Sequence record: PZ445427.1
Length of the DNA: 64,000 nt
Source of the DNA: a phage
Reading direction: 5' to 3' (one strand)
The stretch's first letter is position 1. Each line of letters begins with the position of its first letter. The notes below the pieces were generated by a model. The model saw only the letters and a program-made list of their open reading frames with translations, did no database searches and was not told the origin of the DNA. Positions 12,154 through 50,148 of the stretch are shown in pieces. Made by a program: the position numbers and the translations under genes.

Positions 12154-12182
12154 ATTATACAGAAAAATTTTCCTAAAAGCAA
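12154..12182 (-). promoter_or_regulatory. promoter cassette (minus strand)
   Basis: minus-strand TTGCTT-N17-TATAAT plus AGATTCATAAATTTGAGAGAGGAG leader ending at ATG 12122. Confidence 0.6.
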
Positions 12183-19124: not shown

Positions 19125-20999
19125 TTATTTAGCGCGAATGTCCTGATGTTTCACTCGACCCATAACCTCATGTTGTTTGCCTGGGTTAAATGGACGAGCA
19201 CCTGGATTTCCAAGATATCCGCAAACTCGACGAGTTACCTCAAGAGTCTCAGGATCATGATTGCCACAAATTGGGCATTTGAAACCATCCTCAGAAGCTA
19301 TAGTTTCACCCAAGAACCCACATTCCCCACAAGAGTCTACTGGAGTATTAATACCGAAGTAATGAACTTTACTTGCAGCATAGTTAATAACCCATTCCAG
19401 TGCATCAGGGAATCGTTTCATATCCGGTAATTCCACATAGGAAATGCACCCACCAGAAGCAATAGGAGTAAAGTTAGACTCATAATCAAACTTCACATTT
19501 GGAGCAACCTTACGTTCTACATCAAGGTGATGGGAATTAGTGTAATATCCTTTAGCCAGAATATCTTCATGCTCTGGGAAATACTCACGGTCTAGGCGAC
19601 AGAAGCGATCACATAGAGATTCAGATGGTGTAGCATACAGACTATACCCTAATTGAGTCTCTTCCTTCTTCTGATCAGCACGATCACGCATGTATTGTAG
19701 CACACGTTGAACGAACTTGATACAAGACTCAGACATTGTATCTACATCTTTACCAAACATGAGTTGCAACATTTCGTGGCAGCCAATATATCCTAGGGAT
19801 ACAGAAGCACGCTTGTAGAAATGATCAAATACATATTCATCTGGCCCCAGACGTAATCCAAAGGCTCCTGACATATAGAGGATGGGCGCAGCTTTAGCTT
19901 GAATGTATTTTAAGCGATCAACCCTCCACTCCAATCCTTTTAACGCGGTATCCACACGCAGCTCAAGCAGATCGAAGAATAGATCAATATTTCCTTCCGC
20001 TTCGATAGCAATTCGAGGAAGGTTCACAGAAACAACACCTAAGTTATTACGGCCAGAAGTTTCACCATCTTCCGCAGCAGCTAGGAATGAACGACAGCCC
20101 ATAGAGACTTTGTAGTCACCAGTAACTTCTACAACCTTATCATAACTGATATAGTCAGGATACATACGTTCAGCAGTACATTTCATAGCTAACTTCTTGA
20201 TATCATAGTTAACATCACCAGGTTTCATGTTAACACCATCACGAAGTACAAATACCAGTTTAGGGAAGATAGCTGTACGTTTATTAATACCCAAACCATC
20301 CATACGCACTTCTAAGATTGCTTTCTGTACAAGACGTGCTTCCCAAGAAGTTCCTAGACCAAAACCAAAGGTAATAAATGGACTCTGACCATTAGAGTTG
20401 AACATCGTATTGATCTCATACTCTAGACCCTGACAGGCATCGTAAACTTCCTTCTCAGTCATTTCCGTAGCCATTACAGATGCTTTAGCTTCATCCTTAG
20501 TCCAACGTTTTGCAAACGCATGATTCTTATCATAAGACTTACGAACATAAGGAGCCAATACTTCATCTAATCGGTCTACAGAAGTACCACCATATTGATG
20601 TGAACTAACCTGAGTGATAATCTGAGCTGTGATAGCAGCCGCAGTAGTAATAGAGTTTGGCGTACTGATTTCAGCATTACCAACCTTCATACCGTTTTTC
20701 AACATATCTTCCAAAGCAACCAGGCAACAGTTAGTCATACCTAACGCAGCGTAATCAGCATCATGGAAGTGAATATCACCAATCATGTGAGCATTTCGAA
20801 TCTGGATTGGCATTTCTTCCAGAATCAGATATTTACTCAATTCCCCTGCAAGCATGTCCCTTTGTGTAGGGAAACGTTCTGAGGGCTTATTGGCATTATT
20901 AAACAGCAGCTCTTCATCTGCTGAACCTTCGATAATTTCTTTGCAGTTTCGAATCAAGGACTGCATTCCTTTATACTTTAGTTCTTCATTGCGATTCAT
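19125..20999 (-). CDS. nrdD: anaerobic ribonucleoside-triphosphate reductase (class III RNR)
   Basis: 624 aa; C-terminal Zn-ribbon CGECG...CPICG and glycyl-radical motif RVCGYLG. Confidence 0.85.
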   Translation of the reverse strand: MNRNEELKYKGMQSLIRNCKEIIEGSADEELLFNNANKPSERFPTQRDMLAGELSKYLILEEMPIQIRNAHMIGDIHFHDADYAALGMTNCCLVALEDMLKNGMKVGNAEISTPNSITTAAAITAQIITQVSSHQYGGTSVDRLDEVLAPYVRKSYDKNHAFAKRWTKDEAKASVMATEMTEKEVYDACQGLEYEINTMFNSNGQSPFITFGFGLGTSWEARLVQKAILEVRMDGLGINKRTAIFPKLVFVLRDGVNMKPGDVNYDIKKLAMKCTAERMYPDYISYDKVVEVTGDYKVSMGCRSFLAAAEDGETSGRNNLGVVSVNLPRIAIEAEGNIDLFFDLLELRVDTALKGLEWRVDRLKYIQAKAAPILYMSGAFGLRLGPDEYVFDHFYKRASVSLGYIGCHEMLQLMFGKDVDTMSESCIKFVQRVLQYMRDRADQKKEETQLGYSLYATPSESLCDRFCRLDREYFPEHEDILAKGYYTNSHHLDVERKVAPNVKFDYESNFTPIASGGCISYVELPDMKRFPDALEWVINYAASKVHYFGINTPVDSCGECGFLGETIASEDGFKCPICGNHDPETLEVTRRVCGYLGNPGARPFNPGKQHEVMGRVKHQDIRAK

Positions 21000-21028
21000 T
21001 ATACCCTCCTTCTCTAACTAAGACTACT

Positions 21029-21057
21029 ATTATAACTCATTCGAAGGCGGATGTCAA
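21029..21057 (-). promoter_or_regulatory. sigma70-consensus promoter for nrdD (minus strand)
   Basis: minus-strand TTGACA-N17-TATAAT; differs from the reiterated TTGCTT-type cassette. Confidence 0.6.
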
Positions 21058-21084
21058 CAATATTTTACTATAACATTCTGTAAA

Positions 21085-21098
21085 TTGATCTGAGTCAA
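21085..21098. promoter_or_regulatory. FNR/CRP-like palindrome TTGAT-N4-GTCAA upstream of nrdD promoter
   Basis: TTGATCTGAGTCAA centred about 70 nt upstream of predicted nrdD start site. Confidence 0.35.
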
Positions 21099-21249
21099 AA
21101 AATTTTATTTGCCAACCTCTATTAAAAATAGTATAATCACGCGCCCGTGTACGCGATATAAAATGATTATCTAGTACCACACATCTCCCAATAAAAGCAA
21201 GCAAATTTTTTATTTAAAAGCAATATCATAGGCTTATTTAAAATTGTAG

Positions 21250-21278
21250 TTGCTTTCTCCCGTATATATTGGTATAAT
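21250..21278 (+). promoter_or_regulatory. promoter cassette (TTGCTT-N17-TATAAT)
   Basis: hexamers at 21250-21255 and 21273-21278 upstream of phoH. Confidence 0.6.
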
Positions 21279-21342
21279 ATATTTGTAAGTTGATAAACAA
21301 GATCTTTTTGTTGATCCTCTGTTAGCGAAGTACACTATAGGA

Positions 21343-22104
21343 GTGTTATTTATGGGAAAAGCACGTCAAAAAAGAGAGAACCGCAATGGTTCAAGAAAGC
21401 GTGGCAACAAGTACGAGAGTAACGTAATTCAAGCAGATTTCTCTGGTGATTACGCCAATCCAGTTGCTAAATCCCTAGTTGGTAAAAACCGTGAGCAAAA
21501 ATCATATATCAATATGATCAAGAACAACACAGTGACTGTGGGTATTGGTGAACCAGGTACTGGTAAAACCTTTATTCCATCCGTTCTTGCAGCTCAGGAA
21601 CTCGTAGACATTCACTCAGATATTGAGCAAGTGATCCTCGTGCGTCCGAACGAACCTCTAGGTAAATCTCTTGGTATGCTCCCAGGTGATCTGGCAGAAA
21701 AGCTAGAGCCTTGGTTGGAACCAATAGCCGATGGCATGAAATGGGCAATCGGTGATCACGCCTACAAAGGATATGTCGAACGTCAGAAAATTAAATTCCT
21801 GGCTATCGAACATGCCCGTGGCCGAACTTTCAACAACTCCTATGTAATTGTCGATGAAGCTCAGAATATCTCCGTTGAAGCAATGATCTGTCTCTTGACT
21901 CGTGTAGGACAAGATTGTCGTTTAATTATCTGTGGGGATATAGCGCAGAAAGACATCAAGGGTGATTCAGGTCTAGCACTTCTTATGGAAGTCTATGAGA
22001 AGTATGAAAACTCTCCTTTCTCTATGATCGAACTGATCGACAACGTTCGCTCACCAGAGTCTAAAGCATTCTACGATATCTTTAAGGATATGGGGAAGGT
22101 GTAA
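21343..22104 (+). CDS. phoH: PhoH-like ATPase
   Basis: 253 aa; Walker A GEPGTGKT; Walker B IVDEAQN. Confidence 0.8.
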   Translation: MLFMGKARQKRENRNGSRKRGNKYESNVIQADFSGDYANPVAKSLVGKNREQKSYINMIKNNTVTVGIGEPGTGKTFIPSVLAAQELVDIHSDIEQVILVRPNEPLGKSLGMLPGDLAEKLEPWLEPIADGMKWAIGDHAYKGYVERQKIKFLAIEHARGRTFNNSYVIVDEAQNISVEAMICLLTRVGQDCRLIICGDIAQKDIKGDSGLALLMEVYEKYENSPFSMIELIDNVRSPESKAFYDIFKDMGKV

Positions 22105-22105
22105 T

Positions 22106-22348
22106 ATGGGAAACGTCGTACATCTGCACCGCAAAACTAAGATCCACCGTACTTCACTGAGTGCTGCTAATATGATTACACGTAAGGAAGGGGAAGAAAG
22201 TCCTAAGACTACCCTAGCGTGGAAAATTGTAGCCTCTAATCCAAATCGGCCTTTTAATTATAATGAACTTTCAACATCAGTAGATATTCTTCTGAGGGCG
22301 AATGCGAAAGCAAAAGTAATTAATCAAGCCGAAAAACTAGACTGGTAA
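22106..22348 (+). CDS. hypothetical protein (80 aa)
   Basis: ORF coupled to phoH stop. Confidence 0.4.
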   Translation: MGNVVHLHRKTKIHRTSLSAANMITRKEGEESPKTTLAWKIVASNPNRPFNYNELSTSVDILLRANAKAKVINQAEKLDW

Positions 22349-22469
22349 TATAGAAGGCCTGGGTATGAAAATACTCGGGCCTTTTCTATCAGAAAATTTT
22401 ATTTGCCAAATGACTGAGAATAAAGTAAACTATTTCCTAAATCCTGATAACTACAAAAAGGAAAGCCAA

Positions 22470-24800
22470 ATGAGCCATCGCATAGAAAAAGTAATCAAAC
22501 GTGACGGTACTGTAGAAGACTTTGCTCCTGAAAAACTCAATGGTTGGGCAGTGTATGGCTGCAAAACAGTTGATGTAAGCTGGTCATCCATCACTATGGC
22601 TGCTCAAAAAACTCTACCTAAAGGTGTTGTAGACTCCGACACCCTAATGGATGCGTTAATTAAAGCCGCTGAAGGTCTTATCAAAGATAACCCAGCATAT
22701 GATGTGCCAGCTAAGGAATTACGTCTTGCGCAGATGCGTAAACGTCTATATGACTCCTTCGAGCCTCCTTCTCTGCGTTTCTTCCACGATCATATGGTTA
22801 GTGTTGGAGCTTGGGAAGACATGAGTGCATGGATTAGCGATGATCAGTTTGATGCTCTGAATCAAGTTATCGATCATGATCGCGATCGTTTATTCACCAG
22901 TGGTGGACTGAAACAGTTCTTCGACAAGTATTCCCGTCGTAATATTGCAACTGGTGAAATTTATGAAACCCCGCAGTTTGCCTACATGGGCATGGCAATG
23001 GCGATGTTATCTCAACCTAACTGGACAATCCTAGATGCAATCGACCTCTACAATGCAATGTCGCTCCACAAAATCAACGTTCCTACTCCACCTCTCGTGG
23101 GTCTTAGGAGCAGCGACCGCGGTTTTGCTTCTTGTTGTCTTGTTGATAGTACTGATACCCTCGATTCAATCGACACAGCCGAGCATATCGTCTTCAAAAT
23201 GGTCGCAGCCAGAGCGGGAATCGGGTATCATCTTGAAAGCCGATCAATTGCTGATCCGGTGCGAAATGGGGCATTCCCGCATTCCGGAAAACTGCCATAT
23301 TATCGACACATTGACCGTTCAGTAAAAGCTAACACTCAGCAAACCCGTGGCGGTTCTGCTACTGTGTCTTATCCATACTTCGATCCTGAAATCATTCAGT
23401 TGATGCAGGTTAAGCAGCAACGTGCTACAGACGAGAATAAAATCGATAAGATGGATTATTCTCTGAGCTTTAACAACCTTCTGTTAAAACGTTACCTGAA
23501 AAACGAAGATATTACGCTAATGTCCTACTTCTACGCACCAGAAGTTCATGAAGCGTTTTATGGTGAAGATGAGGCTAAGTTTGAAGAAATCTACGTGGCA
23601 GCGGAGAAACGTGTGGCATCTCTTACAAAGACCGACCACGAAGGAAAAACAATTCCAGCAGCTCCTAGAATCTCTGCAAAAGAAATCCTAGATACTTGGT
23701 TACGTATCCGTATGGAAACAGGGCGTATGTATGCTCATCACATTGGTGAATCTAACCGTCATGGTAACTTCCTTGACCCGATTCGTATGACCAACCTTTG
23801 TGTTGAAATTACTCAGCCAACCCGTCCATTCCATCACATTACGGAACTGTATAAAACCCAAGATCAGTTAGACGATATGCGTCCAGAAGATATTGGTGAA
23901 GTATCTCTGTGTAACTTAGGTGGTGTTGTACTAGGCCGCATGGAATCTCTGGCTGAATGGGAGAAAACTTGCTACATCCTTCTGAAATTCGTTGATACAA
24001 TCATCGAGATTCAGGATTACCCATTCCCAACTATGGAATACACGGCTAAGAAACGTCGAAACGTTGGTATTGGCCTGATGAACGCAGCAGGTGCAATGGC
24101 AGCAGAAGGTTTGGCTTACGAAGGTGTTGAAGCTCGTAACTGGATTCACCGTGAAGCTGAAAAACTGTCTTACTTCCTGCACAAAGCATCTGTACGTCTG
24201 GCTAAAGAACAAGGTGCATGTGACTGGTTTAATCGTACTAAGCCATCCAAAGGAACTCTGGTAATCGACACGTACAAGAAAACTGTTGATGAACTGGTAA
24301 CCGTAGGTCTAGAAATGGATTGGGAATCTCTGCGTGCAGATATCCTGAAATACGGTATGCGTAACTCTGTTCTGACTGCTCAGATGCCGGGTGAAAGTTC
24401 CTCTGTACTGCTAGGTGTTACTAACTCTATTGAACCACCTCGTAAGATTGTATCTATCAAGGGTAGTGCAGTGAATAAAGTAATTGCAATTGCTCCAGGT
24501 GCAACCGATTGGGATACATTAATGAGCTATAAACTGGCTTATGATGTAGATCGTATCGAGTGGATCAAATGGGTAGCAACCATGCAGAAATTTTTCAGTC
24601 AGTCTATCAGTACGAATATGTACTATGACTACACCAAGTTTGAGAATGAAATCATTCCTGGTCCAGTAGTAGTTCGTGATTTCATGACTGCTGTTAAGTA
24701 CGGTTGGAAAACTTGGTACTACGCTAACTTCAACACTGAAAATGGTGGTGGAGCTGGTGAAGAAGCAGCAGGTTGTGCATCCGGTGGTTGTAACCTATAA
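22470..24800 (+). CDS. nrdA: ribonucleoside-diphosphate reductase alpha subunit (class Ia)
   Basis: ATP-cone KRDGTVEDF at chosen start; catalytic-site region EVSLCNLGG; ORF extends to 22365 but upstream part looks like leader. Confidence 0.85.
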   Translation: MSHRIEKVIKRDGTVEDFAPEKLNGWAVYGCKTVDVSWSSITMAAQKTLPKGVVDSDTLMDALIKAAEGLIKDNPAYDVPAKELRLAQMRKRLYDSFEPPSLRFFHDHMVSVGAWEDMSAWISDDQFDALNQVIDHDRDRLFTSGGLKQFFDKYSRRNIATGEIYETPQFAYMGMAMAMLSQPNWTILDAIDLYNAMSLHKINVPTPPLVGLRSSDRGFASCCLVDSTDTLDSIDTAEHIVFKMVAARAGIGYHLESRSIADPVRNGAFPHSGKLPYYRHIDRSVKANTQQTRGGSATVSYPYFDPEIIQLMQVKQQRATDENKIDKMDYSLSFNNLLLKRYLKNEDITLMSYFYAPEVHEAFYGEDEAKFEEIYVAAEKRVASLTKTDHEGKTIPAAPRISAKEILDTWLRIRMETGRMYAHHIGESNRHGNFLDPIRMTNLCVEITQPTRPFHHITELYKTQDQLDDMRPEDIGEVSLCNLGGVVLGRMESLAEWEKTCYILLKFVDTIIEIQDYPFPTMEYTAKKRRNVGIGLMNAAGAMAAEGLAYEGVEARNWIHREAEKLSYFLHKASVRLAKEQGACDWFNRTKPSKGTLVIDTYKKTVDELVTVGLEMDWESLRADILKYGMRNSVLTAQMPGESSSVLLGVTNSIEPPRKIVSIKGSAVNKVIAIAPGATDWDTLMSYKLAYDVDRIEWIKWVATMQKFFSQSISTNMYYDYTKFENEIIPGPVVVRDFMTAVKYGWKTWYYANFNTENGGGAGEEAAGCASGGCNL

Positions 24801-24809
24801 TAAAAACAA

Positions 24810-24836
24810 GGAGATCTTCGGGTCTCCTTTTTCTTT
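24810..24836 (+). terminator. rho-independent terminator after nrdA
   Basis: GGAGATC-TTCG-GGTCTCC hairpin followed by TTTTTCTTT. Confidence 0.6.
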
Positions 24837-24846
24837 GAAATTTTAC

Positions 24847-24875
24847 TTGCTAATCGCTACCAGATTTGCTATAAT
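24847..24875 (+). promoter_or_regulatory. promoter cassette (TTGCTA-N17-TATAAT)
   Basis: upstream of nrdB. Confidence 0.6.
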
Positions 24876-24906
24876 ATTCCTGAAATAGTGAGAAAGAGGA
24901 AAATCA

Positions 24907-26052
24907 ATGACTACTTTACTAAACCTGAATTGGGATCATACTAACGCTGACCTTTTCCTGGGCGATTCTCTTGGTATCGCAGATTACGTTCGTGTAGCAC
25001 ATCCTGAACTTGAGCGTCTAGCACTTCTGCAACGTTCTCAATTTTGGACTGAAACTGAAATCAGTCTGGAAGCTGATAAGAAACAATGGCCAAACCTCCC
25101 GCGTGATATCCAGGAAATTACTCTCCTGAACTTAGCATGGCAAACTCAAACAGATTCTTTCATTAGTCGTGCTCCTGAGGCAGCTATTATGCCACTTGTA
25201 AGCCGTCCTGAATTGGAAGGTATGCTCAAGCAGTGGAGCTACTTCGAAGATCTACATAGCCGTGCGTATAGTAACATTATTCGTAACGTTCTGACTGACC
25301 CAGCAGAATTTATTGATTCTGTAACTAAAAACCAAGAAGCATTTGCACGTATCGCAGATTCTGTTGAACTGTTTGATGAATTGTATCTGTTAGGTCAGTA
25401 TTTCCTTGCAGTACGTGATCATCAGGGTGATAATACTTATCCAGAAACTGAGTTCCCTGAAGTTAAACGTGAAACTCAGGCTAAGCTGTTAGATGCTTAC
25501 TTTGCAATCTACGGTCTGGAAGCAATGCAGTTCTACGCATCTTTTGCATGTACCTTTGCTCTAGCAGAGAACGATATTCTGCAAGGTATTGCCAAGAACC
25601 TGCAACTAATTGCTAAAGATGAAGCTCTGCACACTCAAATGTCTAAAGCTATCATCCAGATTATGTTTCAGCAGTTTGATAAAGATCTGGTAGATGAAGC
25701 ATTAGCTAAAGCACCAGCACAACTCCTAAAAACTCTGAAAACTGAGATTGAATGGGGTCACTTTATCTTTAAAGGCCGTAGTCTGATTGGTTTGAACGCA
25801 GAACTGCTTGAAGAATATCTTTACTTTGTAGGACGTAACGCATTTATGCATATTGGTGTAGAATGGCCAAGCCACTTACCTGTAATTACTAAGAACCCTA
25901 TTCCGTGGATTATGAACTGGTTGGATACTACGTCTTTACAACCTGCTCCGCAAGAGATTCAGATTGGTGCGGCATACCGCGTAGGTCAGGTCACAGAAAC
26001 CTCTGCTGATACTCTGAAAGATCTTGGCAACGAATTTGAGGGTATGTTCTAA
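24907..26052 (+). CDS. nrdB: ribonucleoside-diphosphate reductase beta subunit
   Basis: 381 aa; di-iron ligand region (EALHT, helix with E/H pairs); follows nrdA. Confidence 0.85.
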   Translation: MTTLLNLNWDHTNADLFLGDSLGIADYVRVAHPELERLALLQRSQFWTETEISLEADKKQWPNLPRDIQEITLLNLAWQTQTDSFISRAPEAAIMPLVSRPELEGMLKQWSYFEDLHSRAYSNIIRNVLTDPAEFIDSVTKNQEAFARIADSVELFDELYLLGQYFLAVRDHQGDNTYPETEFPEVKRETQAKLLDAYFAIYGLEAMQFYASFACTFALAENDILQGIAKNLQLIAKDEALHTQMSKAIIQIMFQQFDKDLVDEALAKAPAQLLKTLKTEIEWGHFIFKGRSLIGLNAELLEEYLYFVGRNAFMHIGVEWPSHLPVITKNPIPWIMNWLDTTSLQPAPQEIQIGAAYRVGQVTETSADTLKDLGNEFEGMF

Positions 26053-49779: not shown

Positions 49780-50148
49780 ATGAAAGCATATCAAAGTCTT
49801 AAGTCTGGCGTAATTAACATTGTTCATAACAATCAGATCATTCAACTATATTCTAAAGATGGTGAACTTAAACAGAAAGTTCTAGTCGAAGATCTAGAAG
49901 GTATCACACCTCACTTTGACCCTGAGGCCTTTCGCATTGTAGATGTGGAAGTGGTTCCTCAAGTCGAGGGTGGTCAGCACCTAAATGTCAATGTGTTAAG
50001 CCGTGATCAGCTTTTGGATGCACAGAAACATCCTGAAAAATATCCTCAGTTGACCATCCGTGTCTCTGGCTATGCTGTTCGATTTAACGCATTGACGCGT
50101 GAACAACAGAACGACGTTATTAGTCGTACATTTACTCAGGCGATATAA
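49780..50148 (+). CDS. autonomous glycyl-radical cofactor (GrcA/YfiD-like)
   Basis: 122 aa; C-terminal glycyl-radical signature [25 protein letters not shown]. Confidence 0.7.

What the first reader, a model, noticed from the sequence alone, without database searches (positions are those of the whole stretch)
21029..21098. Consensus sigma70 promoter plus FNR-like palindrome upstream of nrdD
Seen in sequence: nrdD uses TTGACA-N17-TATAAT (minus strand) instead of the reiterated phage cassette, and a TTGAT-CTGA-GTCAA palindrome lies about 70 nt upstream of the predicted start site. Established knowledge: host nrdDG is FNR-activated under anaerobiosis and FNR sites fit TTGAT-N4-ATCAA. Inference: the phage anaerobic RNR may be wired into the host oxygen-sensing regulon.
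Basis: partly seen in the sequence, partly recalled or inferred. Interest (0 to 1): 0.45.

Follow-up and report, generated by a model that had tools for sequence, protein, structure and literature searches.

The report
FNR-type box upstream of phage nrdD
A T5-like phage carries a conserved DNA motif that matches the binding site of the host oxygen sensor FNR, next to a perfect promoter for its oxygen-sensitive ribonucleotide reductase gene, so the phage probably reads the host's anaerobic signal, although this has not been tested experimentally.

Summary
Both parts of the observation are in the sequence. On the minus strand, TTGACA (21057-21052), a 17-nt spacer and TATAAT (21034-21029) precede nrdD (20999-19125). 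The palindrome TTGAC-TCAG-ATCAA (21098-21085) is centred about -69.5 from the predicted start.

The window is a T5-like Epseptimavirus of Salmonella/E. coli. I scored it with a matrix built from 63 ChIP-bound E. coli FNR sites. The palindrome scores 17.3 bits, the best 14-mer in 64 kb and about equal to the host nrdDG FNR site 2 (17.9). The chance of such a site in this intergenic region is about 1e-3.

In six to seven divergent T5-like lineages the TGA/TCA core is invariant, always 27 nt from the invariant -35, while flanks are only 30-55% identical. Strong FNR boxes also precede nrdD in unrelated Vibrio- and Aeromonas-phage-like contigs, two with canonical class II geometry. That is 6 of 37 locus clusters against 0.075 expected.

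Caveats:
- T5 itself and DT57C-type phages lack the box.
- Most close relatives carry a weaker variant (13.8 bits).
- A 12/12 core promoter should need little activation.
- The start site is unmapped.

Verdict: a probable, apparently undescribed FNR site on a virulent phage. Its regulatory effect is inferred.

The parts
21085..21098 (.). FNR-type inverted repeat, TTGATCTGAGTCAA on the plus strand (TTGAC-TCAG-ATCAA on the nrdD strand). Its centre, 21091.5, is about -69.5 from the nrdD promoter and about -52.5 from the divergent phoH P2 promoter.
   Evidence: PWM score 17.3 bits, the best in the window and above 52 of 63 ChIP-bound E. coli sites. The TGA/TCA core is invariant in 8 representatives of divergent T5-like lineages.
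21052..21057 (-). -35 hexamer TTGACA of the nrdD promoter
   Evidence: Conserved in nearly all T5-like loci, although the spacer diverges.
21029..21034 (-). -10 hexamer TATAAT of the nrdD promoter, 17 nt after the -35. The predicted +1 is near 21022. The discriminator is agtagt, not the ATATT of T5 early promoters.
   Evidence: The ATATT rule for early promoters comes from PMC7472727. The start site is predicted, not mapped.
21062..21066 (-). A-tract (AAAAT) just upstream of the -35, resembling a proximal UP element. It is shared with the cassette promoters and conserved across lineages.
   Evidence: Consensus line; cassette listing.
21057..21062 (-). Weak -10-like hexamer TATTGT, exactly 22 nt downstream of the box. 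This is class II (-41.5) geometry and could be a tandem FNR-dependent start. It is not conserved outside the window and BF23 haplotypes.
   Evidence: (TTTACA-16-TATTGT). The same 22-nt spacing occurs in the class II examples.
19125..20999 (-). nrdD, the class III (anaerobic) ribonucleotide reductase large subunit, 624 aa
   Evidence: Pfam NRDD 1.6e-171 and Gly_radical 8.8e-23.
21109..21137 (+). Divergent promoter P2 (TTGCCA-N17-TATAAT) heading phoH, DUF7430, nrdA and nrdB. The box begins 10 nt upstream of its -35.
   Evidence: The distance from the box to this -35 varies between 8 and 28 nt among lineages.
21250..21278 (+). Cassette-type promoter P1 for phoH (TTGCTT-N17-TATAAT-atatt)
21352..26052 (+). 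phoH (21352-22104), DUF7430 (22106-22348), nrdA (22365-24800) and nrdB (24907-26052): the aerobic RNR gene set, divergent from nrdD

Best explanation
The palindrome is a binding site for the host oxygen sensor FNR. It has been kept by selection at a fixed distance, 27 nt upstream of the -35 and centred at about -70, from a strong sigma-70 promoter that drives the phage anaerobic ribonucleotide reductase gene nrdD.

In anaerobic cells the [4Fe-4S] FNR dimer would occupy the box. Through a class I type contact with the alpha C-terminal domain of RNA polymerase, it would raise nrdD transcription. It may at the same time hinder the divergent phoH-nrdA-nrdB P2 promoter, whose UP region it abuts.

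What is shown: the motif, its quality, its rarity, its conservation and fixed spacing, and its recurrence upstream of nrdD in unrelated phages.

What is inferred: FNR binding, and the direction and size of the effect.
For: Motif quality:
- The site is the top FNR-matrix hit in 64 kb, at 17.3 bits. This is about equal to E. coli nrdDG site 2, TTGAGCTACATCAA, at 17.9 bits.
- That host site is reported as necessary and sufficient for nrdDG activation (PMC10425943).
- The chance of a site this good in the intergenic region is 1.4e-3.

Conservation within T5-like phages:
- The lineages compared are window, BF23, STG2, mar003J3, Klebsiella Sugarlandvirus, NBEco002 and L066.
- Flanks are 30-55% identical, the half-sites 91% conserved, and the TGA/TCA core 100% conserved.
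- Substitutions fall only at the low-information positions of the FNR motif (positions 1, 5 and the spacer).
- The gap to the -35 is always 27 nt, whereas the gap to the divergent P2 -35 varies from 8 to 28 nt.
- The base before TGA is T or A, never G, which is the FNR type rather than the CRP type. The match to the CRP consensus is only 7 of 10.

Recurrence outside T5-like phages:
- 6 of 37 clusters of phage nrdD loci have a box of at least 16 bits within 300 nt upstream of nrdD, against 0.075 expected.
- Two groups show class II geometry: L107 has the box, 22 nt, then TATAAT; L029 and L073 have the box, 22 nt, then TAACCT or TACCCT.

Biological context:
- No NrdG activase candidate (CX3CX2C motif) was found in the window or in the whole genome of the closest relative. 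The phage enzyme would therefore depend on host NrdG, which is encoded in the FNR-activated nrdDG operon.
- T5 transcription uses host sigma-70 RNA polymerase throughout infection (PMC7472727).
Against: - The core promoter is 12/12 consensus with an A-tract, so any gain from an activator may be small.
- The -69.5 position rests on a predicted start site. It lies between the canonical class I positions and 5 bp from the host's -64.5 site.
- FNR sites at -61.5 or further upstream are rare among activated E. coli promoters (PMC3688515).
- T5 (4.0 bits) and the DT57C/Gostya9 lineage have the same promoter without a box.
- Of 296 records matching this region, only 39 are identical to the strong haplotype and about 215 fall in the 90-95% identity band, which fits the weaker ...ATCAT variant.
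- In STK8t, the closest relative, the box is only the third-best hit in the genome.
- The count of consensus matches with at most one mismatch shows no window-wide excess.
- In Vibrio phage pVp-1 the box overlaps the -35, which is a repressor-like position. The sign of the effect need not be the same everywhere.
- There is no experimental evidence of any kind.
Confidence: 0.55

Rival explanations
1. FNR binds the box, but its main target is the divergent P2 promoter of phoH-DUF7430-nrdA-nrdB. From about -52.5 it would displace the alpha C-terminal domain from the UP region and lower aerobic RNR expression in anaerobic cells. The effect on the already optimal nrdD promoter would be minor.
For: - The box begins 10 nt upstream of the P2 -35 and overlaps its AT-rich upstream region.
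- In E. coli, FNR directly represses nrdAB.
- FNR represses ndh from a site at -50.5 (PMC3688515).
- The nrdD core promoter is 12/12 consensus.
Against: - The distance from the box to the P2 -35 varies (8, 10, 17 and 28 nt), while the distance to the nrdD -35 is invariant at 27 nt.
- A second, cassette-type promoter P1 (21250-21278) would still drive phoH and nrdAB.
- In unrelated phages the box sits in class II position for nrdD itself.
Confidence: 0.15
2. The palindrome is a neutral or hitch-hiking sequence. TTGAC resembles a -35 hexamer and is common in this promoter-rich, AT-rich DNA, and the other half-site arose by chance. It has no regulatory role in this phage.
For: - There is no window-wide excess of consensus matches with at most one mismatch.
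- The box is absent from T5 and DT57C-type phages and weakened in most close relatives.
- A consensus promoter needs no activator.
Against: - The local probability of a site this good is 4e-4 to 1.4e-3.
- The core is as conserved as the -35 and -10 hexamers while the flanks have randomised.
- Substitutions are confined to degenerate motif positions, and the spacing is fixed.
- 6 of 37 nrdD locus clusters carry a strong box, against 0.075 expected.
- No -10 element sits at a usable distance from the TTGAC half-site, so it is not a hidden promoter.
Confidence: 0.15
3. The box is the operator of a different protein that recognises TGA-N6-TCA. This could be a phage-encoded regulator or another host member of the CRP/FNR family, rather than FNR.
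For: - The conserved core TGA-N6-TCA is shared by the whole CRP/FNR family.
- The closest relative encodes several small proteins annotated only as 'transcriptional regulator' or 'DNA binding protein'.
Against: - This is the only high-scoring copy in the 64 kb. An operator for a phage-encoded regulator would usually recur.
- The flanking T and A (TTGA...TCAA) fit FNR, not CRP (7 of 10).
- No CRP/FNR-family protein is annotated in the relative's genome.
- The same motif precedes nrdD in unrelated phage families that would not share a phage-encoded regulator.
Confidence: 0.1

Closest known systems
E. coli / Salmonella nrdDG promoter (FNR sites at -64.5 and -33.5)
   Same: It drives the same gene function (class III RNR). 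The upstream FNR box is of nearly identical quality: TTGAGCTACATCAA at 17.9 bits against 17.3 bits here. That upstream site alone suffices for activation in the host (PMC10425943). The box sits well upstream of the -35.
   Different: The phage has a single box, at about -69.5 rather than -64.5, and no second box overlapping the -35. It has no NrdR boxes (the best match has 5 mismatches in 16). Its core promoter is 12/12 consensus. The flanking sequences show no similarity, so it is not a copy of the host promoter.
Class I CRP/FNR-dependent promoters (activator upstream of -60, contact with the alpha C-terminal domain)
   Same: A single dimer site lies upstream of the -35 with AT-rich DNA in between. 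The spacing to the core promoter is fixed across lineages.
   Different: From my own knowledge (Wing, Williams and Busby 1995), the canonical positions are -61.5, -71.5, -82.5 and so on. Here the predicted position is -69.5 and the start site is unmapped. Such promoters normally have weak core elements. FNR class I promoters are rare in E. coli (PMC3688515).
Class II FNR/ANR promoters (box at -41.5)
   Same: This geometry is found upstream of nrdD in other phage contigs: L107, L029 and L073 each have the box, 22 nt, then a TAnnnT hexamer. In the window, a weak TATTGT lies exactly 22 nt after the box.
   Different: In the window the dominant promoter is the consensus one 28 nt further downstream. 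The TATTGT hexamer is not conserved across lineages.
FNR repression from upstream sites (ndh at -50.5; nrdAB repressed by FNR in E. coli)
   Same: The box lies about -52.5 from the divergent promoter that leads to the phage nrdA and nrdB genes.
   Different: The spacing to that promoter is not conserved, and a second downstream promoter exists.
Host global regulator sites on virulent phage genomes (phi29/Nf Spo0A sites, PMC2731898)
   Same: A lytic phage carries binding sites for a host global regulator, so that phage gene expression follows host physiology.
   Different: The regulator (Spo0A), host and purpose (suppression of the lytic cycle during sporulation) all differ. Here a single auxiliary metabolic gene would be tuned to oxygen.
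T5 early-promoter cassette (P25, P26, PN25 type)
   Same: It has the same -10 (TATAAT), the same 17-nt spacer length and the A-tract upstream of the -35. It is read by host sigma-70 RNA polymerase.
   Different: The -35 is TTGACA rather than TTGCTT/A. The spacer is richer in G+C. The discriminator is agtagt rather than ATATT, and there is no ATAAAT downstream block.

Membership tests
FNR DNA-binding site | Inverted repeat TTGAT-N4-ATCAA with intact TTGA...TCAA cores | tested here: met
   TTGAC-TCAG-ATCAA matches at 9 of 10 positions. The only mismatch is at position 5, a low-information position (T 0.71, C 0.19).
FNR DNA-binding site | Matrix score within the range of experimentally bound sites | tested here: met
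   17.3 bits with a matrix built from 63 ChIP-seq-bound E. coli sites (PMC3688515 Table S6). This exceeds 52 of the 63 sites and is the best hit in the 64-kb window.
FNR DNA-binding site | FNR-type rather than CRP-type half-site (T, not G, before TGA) | tested here: met
   The half-sites are TTGA and TCAA in the window. All lineages have T or A at that position, never G. The match to the CRP consensus is only 7 of 10.
FNR DNA-binding site | Conservation across related genomes | tested here: inconclusive
   The core is invariant at a fixed spacing in 6-7 divergent T5-like lineages. It is absent in T5 and the DT57C type, and most close relatives carry a weaker variant.
FNR DNA-binding site | The host encodes FNR, and FNR physically binds the site | not testable with these tools
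   The hosts named in related records are Salmonella and E. coli, whose nrdDG promoters carry FNR boxes (PMC2892513, PMC10425943). Binding to the phage site needs a gel shift or footprint.
Class I FNR-activated promoter | Site centred near -61.5, -71.5 or -82.5 on the correct helical face | tested here: inconclusive
   The predicted centre is -69.5 (-70.5 if the start is one base further downstream). The start site is not mapped. No purine lies 6-9 nt after the -10.
Class I FNR-activated promoter | Sub-optimal core promoter that depends on the activator | tested here: not met
   The core is 12/12 consensus with a 17-nt spacer and an upstream A-tract.
Class I FNR-activated promoter | Expression depends on anaerobiosis and on fnr | not testable with these tools
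   Needs reporter fusions, or RT-qPCR during infection, with and without oxygen in fnr+ and delta-fnr hosts.
Class II FNR-activated promoter | Box centred at -41.5, that is about 22 nt between the box and a -10 hexamer, with no good -35 | tested here: inconclusive
   TATTGT (21062-21057) lies exactly 22 nt after the box, but it is weak, overlaps the consensus -35 and is not conserved. The geometry is clearly met in other phage contigs: L107, L029 and L073.
Sigma-70 promoter | -35 and -10 hexamers with a 16-18 nt spacer, conserved and correctly placed before the gene | tested here: met
   It is the only 12/12 site in the window. The hexamers are invariant across T5-like genera while the spacer diverges. 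The promoter lies 30 nt before the ATG, with an AGGAGG Shine-Dalgarno sequence. The start site is not mapped.
T5 early-promoter cassette | TTGCTT/A -35, ATATT discriminator and ATAAAT downstream block | tested here: not met
   The nrdD promoter has TTGACA, agtagt and no ATAAAT block. About 30 cassette copies are listed. The ATATT rule is from PMC7472727.
NrdR-repressed RNR promoter | Two 16-bp NrdR boxes (acaCwAtATaTwGtgt) about three helical turns apart | tested here: not met
   The best match in 20990-21360 has 5 mismatches in 16.

The most novel reading that the evidence does not exclude
Virulent phages of facultative anaerobes repeatedly place a host redox-regulator site between their divergent RNR promoters. 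The site is an FNR box in Enterobacteriaceae, Vibrio and Aeromonas phages, and an ArcA-type direct repeat at the same position in Proteus and Providencia T5-like phages. One bound host protein would then raise nrdD expression and lower phoH-nrdAB expression. This would copy the host's reciprocal oxygen control of its RNR classes onto an auxiliary metabolic module during lytic infection.
Probability: 0.2. Interest if true: 0.7.

Novelty: new member of a known kind. Interest (0 to 1): 0.55.

Why it matters
If FNR does act here, a strictly lytic phage that shuts off host gene expression would still use a pre-existing host sensor protein to decide how much of an oxygen-sensitive enzyme to make. 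That would make nrdD an example of an auxiliary metabolic gene whose expression depends on host physiology.

It would also explain how T5-like phages, which are common in the gut and in food-chain Salmonella and E. coli, adapt DNA-precursor supply to anoxic niches.

It gives a simple and testable handle, since natural strong, weak and absent box variants already exist. This is relevant to phage therapy in anaerobic body sites.

The enrichment of FNR boxes upstream of nrdD in several unrelated phage families suggests that the phenomenon is general. I found no description of it in the searchable literature.

Tried and rejected
- Mismatch counting. A count of consensus matches with at most one mismatch showed no enrichment (8 found, 5.2 expected). 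I replaced it with a matrix built from ChIP-bound sites.
- CRP site. Only 7 of 10 positions match, and the discriminating base is wrong.
- NrdR boxes. None in the intergenic region. The ACACT-N5-AGTGT palindrome at 21332-21346 is 15 bp, single, and contains the phoH ribosome-binding site.
- Hidden promoter. I checked whether the TTGAC half-site is the -35 of another promoter. No acceptable -10 lies at 16-18 nt: TGTTAT lacks the A at position 2, and TATAGT is 20 nt away.
- Known RNA element. Rfam gave only two sub-threshold chance hits.
- Phage-encoded NrdG or a CRP/FNR-like regulator. No radical-SAM CX3CX2C candidate was found in the window or in the STK8t genome, and none is annotated.
- More T5-like diversity. 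Pattern scans of IMG/VR and of metagenome contigs returned mostly the genomes already held.
- Literature on start-site mapping of the T5 nrdD promoter and on FNR in T5-like phages. Nothing found. Boston and Atlung 2003 is not held. A search for the FNR spacing paper returned noise.
- Annotation check. The BF23 record notes that the nrdD promoter is 'absent in T5 phage'. This is not borne out, because T5 has the same hexamers.

Full report
**What is there.**
Read on the minus strand, the region upstream of the 624-aa ORF 20999-19125 contains, in order:
- TTGAC-TCAG-ATCAA at 21098-21085
- 27 nt of AT-rich DNA ending in an A-tract
- TTGACA at 21057-21052
- a 17-nt spacer
- TATAAT at 21034-21029
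- agtagtc...
- AGGAGG at 21010-21005
- the ATG at 20999

The ORF is a class III ribonucleotide reductase (Pfam NRDD 1.6e-171 and Gly_radical). On the other strand lie phoH (21352-22104), a DUF7430 gene, nrdA and nrdB. The 352-nt intergenic region therefore separates the anaerobic RNR gene from the aerobic RNR genes. The window is a T5-like phage (Demerecviridae, Epseptimavirus). It is 99.6% identical to Salmonella phage STK8t over this stretch, and 445 related records were found, mostly from Salmonella and E. coli.

**The promoter.**
TTGACA-N17-TATAAT is the only 12/12 match in the window. Four sites have at most one mismatch, against 0.83 expected. The two hexamers are retained upstream of nrdD in nearly every T5-like locus examined. 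These include Klebsiella (Sugarlandvirus), Proteus and Providencia phages whose NrdD is only 62-73% identical, and the spacer sequence diverges freely among them. That pattern indicates a functional promoter.

The window also holds about 30 copies of the T5 early-promoter cassette, aaaaatt..TTGCTT/A-N17-TATAAT-atatt.ataaat. Klimuk et al. state that all known T5 early promoters carry ATATT in the discriminator (PMC7472727). One qualification: the A-tract just upstream of the -35 is shared with the cassette.

**Is the palindrome more than chance?**
Counting matches to TTGAT-N4-ATCAA with at most one mismatch gives 8 in the window against 5.2 +/- 2.1 expected. By that measure there is no excess.

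I then built a position weight matrix from the 63 predicted sites that coincide with FNR ChIP-seq peaks in E. coli (Myers et al. 2013, Table S6). With it, the site at 21085-21098 scores 17.3 bits. It is the best 14-mer in 64 kb (the next is 13.8) and scores above 52 of the 63 bound sites. It is about equal to the host nrdDG FNR site 2, TTGAGCTACATCAA, at 17.9 bits. That host site is reported as necessary and sufficient for nrdDG activation (PMC10425943).

A site of at least 17.3 bits is expected 0.12 times per shuffled window. The probability of one in this intergenic region is 1.4e-3, and within 100 nt of the -35 it is 4e-4. The site is not a CRP site (7 of 10 to TGTGA-N6-TCACA), and the region has no NrdR boxes.

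**Conservation within T5-like phages.**
I aligned sequences without gaps on the -35. A box occupies exactly the same position, 27 nt from the -35, in these lineages:

| Lineage | Box sequence | Score (bits) |
|---|---|---|
| Window haplotype | TTGACTCAGATCAA | 17.3 |
| BF23 type | TTGACTCAGATCAT | 13.8 |
| STG2 | TTGACTAAAATCAA | 17.2 |
| mar003J3 | TTGAGCCAGATCAA | 16.6 |
| Klebsiella Sugarlandvirus | ATGATCTAGATCAA / ATGATCCAGATCAA | 18.1 / 16.0 |
| NBEco002 type | TTGATTAAGATCAA | 19.4 |
| L066 | TTGATAAAAATCAA | 18.1 |

Among these lineages the surrounding DNA is only 30-55% identical, which is close to random for AT-rich sequence. In contrast, the TGA/TCA cores are 100% conserved and the ten half-site positions 91% conserved. 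This is on a par with the -35 (98%) and the -10 (100%). The substitutions fall at positions 1 and 5 and in the spacer, which are exactly the degenerate positions of the FNR matrix.

The distance from the box to the divergent phoH P2 -35 varies (8, 10, 17 and 28 nt). The box therefore travels with the nrdD promoter, not with P2.

Against this:
- T5 itself has TTAGCACAGATCAA (4.0 bits).
- The DT57C/Gostya9 lineage has no box, although both have the same promoter.
- A 68-nt query across the box finds 39 records at 99% identity or more, 41 at 95-99% and 215 at 90-95%. The last band fits the BF23-type haplotype.
- In the full STK8t genome the BF23-type box is only the third-best hit.

So the strong box is a minority allele among close relatives. 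The weaker one still exceeds 17 of the 63 bound E. coli sites.

**Beyond T5-like Enterobacteriaceae phages.**
A profile-guided search returned 80 phage nrdD loci, of which 70 were analysed. I clustered them at 80% nucleotide identity, giving 37 clusters. Six clusters have a box of at least 16 bits within 300 nt upstream of nrdD, against 0.075 expected from local composition. Even if related clusters are merged into four independent lineages, the excess remains very large.

The additional cases are:
- Vibrio phage pVp-1, a T5-like phage. It has a perfect TTGATATAGATCAA whose left half is the -35 of a TTGATA-N17-TATAAT promoter.
- L107, related to 130-kb Vibrio phages. It has TTGACTAAGATCAA, then 22 nt, then TATAAT.
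- L029 and L073, GC-rich contigs resembling Aeromonas phages. They have TTGATTTTAATCAA or TTGATCTCAATCAA, then 22 nt, then TAACCT or TACCCT.

The last two groups have textbook class II (-41.5) FNR/ANR architecture and no -35, as expected for activator-dependent promoters. T4-like clusters have no box. Two 'viral' contigs, L079 and L081, encode a host-type NrdD with the E. coli-like N-terminus and carry a 15.4-bit box about 200 nt upstream. They serve as an informal positive control.

**Mechanism.**
All T5 gene classes are transcribed by host sigma-70 RNA polymerase (PMC7472727), so host activators can act on this promoter in principle. With +1 at 21022 the box is centred at -69.5, or -70.5 if the start is one base further downstream. 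No purine lies 6-9 nt after the -10, so the start cannot be refined from the sequence.

This resembles a class I arrangement in which FNR contacts the alpha C-terminal domain. From my own knowledge, the canonical positions are -61.5 and -71.5, so -69.5 is about 2 bp off. It is also 5 bp from the host's -64.5 site. Myers et al. note that FNR sites at -61.5 or beyond are rare among activated promoters.

The main mechanistic objection is that a 12/12 promoter with an A-tract should gain little from recruitment. Two alternatives remain open:
- A weak TATTGT (21062-21057) lies exactly 22 nt after the box, which is class II geometry. It is not conserved outside the window and BF23 haplotypes.
- The box is centred about -52.5 from phoH P2, which leads to nrdA and nrdB. 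In E. coli, FNR directly represses nrdAB, and it represses ndh from -50.5. One bound dimer could therefore favour nrdD and disfavour the aerobic RNR operon. However, the variable spacing to P2 and the presence of a second promoter, P1, weaken this reading.

One supporting piece of context: no NrdG activase candidate (radical-SAM CX3CX2C motif) is present in the window or in the 114-kb STK8t genome, and none is annotated there. The phage NrdD therefore presumably needs host NrdG, which comes from the FNR-activated nrdDG operon. The enzyme is useful only in cells where FNR was already active. This step is inference.

**Comparison with what is known, and novelty.**
The element passes the sequence-level tests for an FNR site: consensus, matrix score and discrimination from CRP. 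It fails one expectation of an activator-dependent promoter, namely a weak core. Its position is inconclusive.

It is not a copy of the host nrdDG promoter. It has one box rather than two, no NrdR boxes and unrelated flanks. Conceptually, the nearest precedent I found is the use of host Spo0A sites by phi29-family phages (PMC2731898).

Full-text searches for T5, T5-like or phage together with nrdD and FNR returned nothing describing this. The library is incomplete, so prior description cannot be excluded. I classify it as a new member of a known kind: an FNR regulon member on a virulent phage.

**Verdict.**

| Reading | My estimate |
|---|---|
| The box is a selected cis-element | about 0.85 |
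| It binds FNR | about 0.7 |
| The effect is mainly repression of the divergent P2 | about 0.15 |
| It has no function | about 0.15 |
| It binds another protein | about 0.1 |

Interest is moderate at 0.55. The idea is testable, and natural allelic variants already exist. It also appears to generalise across phage families.

Noticed in passing
L019:1392-1407, L022:1393-1408 (Providencia phages PR1 and PSTCR5); L031:1413-1428, L032:1393-1408 (Proteus phage Stubb group); L018:1388 and L020:1371 (one mismatch each): T5-like phages of Proteus and Providencia have no FNR box. At the same place, 26-27 nt upstream of the nrdD -35 and between the divergent promoters, they carry a direct repeat TGTTA-N6-TGTTA (TGTTAATAAAATGTTA or TGTTAATATTTTGTTA). 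From my own memory this matches the ArcA-P box consensus. Perfect matches are rare: 10 in 675 kb of all loci held, and 4 of them are these sites. This could be a second host redox regulator wired to the same position.
   Followed up: partly
L107:1404-1417; L029:1380-1393; L073:1380-1393; L075:1077-1090: Strong FNR-type boxes (17.5-20.3 bits) lie upstream of nrdD in unrelated phage contigs related to Vibrio and Aeromonas phages. L107, L029 and L073 have class II geometry: the box, 22 nt, then a TAnnnT hexamer. In Vibrio phage pVp-1 (L075) the box overlaps the -35 of a TTGATA-N17-TATAAT promoter, which looks like a repressor position.
   Followed up: partly
window (whole) and STK8t genome L113-L115: No NrdG activase candidate (radical-SAM CX3CX2C motif) was found in the 64-kb window or in the complete genome of the closest relative, and none is annotated. 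The phage NrdD would then have to be activated by host NrdG.
   Followed up: partly
window 21136-21157 (minus strand), overlapping the -10 and discriminator of phoH P2 (21132-21137, plus strand): A GC-rich inverted repeat ATCGCGTACACGGGCGCGTGAT, followed by TATACTATTT, scores as terminator-like on the nrdD strand. On the plus strand it gives P2 an unusually GC-rich discriminator (cacgcgcccgtg). A CGCG-rich block at this position recurs in distant T5-like lineages. Its function is unknown.
   Followed up: no
window 21332-21346 (plus strand): A palindrome ACACT-ATAGG-AGTGT encloses the phoH Shine-Dalgarno sequence, 6 nt before the ATG at 21352. It might form a translational hairpin. It looks superficially like an NrdR box but is 15 bp and single.
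   Followed up: partly
window, about 30 sites, for example 12182(-), 28546(+), 33595(+), 39898(+), 62249(+): A reiterated T5 early-promoter cassette: aaaaatt.a. TTGCTT/A, a 17-nt spacer ending in ttctg, TATAAT, then atatt.ataaat. It includes a near-exact PN25-like copy at 12182.
   Followed up: partly
L016:732-1500, L025, L066:737-1500; L004:1892-2053: In several T5-like phages an extra ORF sits between the boxed promoter and nrdD. I did not check whether it is a homing endonuclease. Gostya9/DT57C-type phages instead have a 5' leader of about 130 nt, with visible self-complementarity, before a divergent nrdD allele (60% identity). The nrdD upstream region appears to be a hot spot for insertion and replacement.
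   Followed up: no
L076:3306-3319, L077:3772-3785: A 19.7-bit FNR-type box, TTGACCTAGATCAA, sits at the very 3' end of nrdD, just before a hairpin and an RNR large-subunit-like gene. This could be FNR control of the downstream gene.
   Followed up: no
L002 (BF23 record OR083247.1), feature at 49831-49911: The record labels the nrdD promoter 'absent in T5 phage'. However, T5 (NC_005859, L005:3904-3932) has the same TTGACA-N17-TATAAT. What T5 lacks is the left half of the upstream box.
   Followed up: yes
window 21160-21215 (minus strand): A cassette-like aaaaaatttgcttgctt sequence lies on the nrdD strand about 150 nt upstream of the nrdD promoter. In Gostya9 it is followed by a good -10 (TTGCTT-N17-TATGAT), but in the window the -10 has degenerated (TGTGGT). 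It may be a decayed upstream promoter, and the terminator-like hairpin at 21157-21136 lies downstream of it.
   Followed up: no
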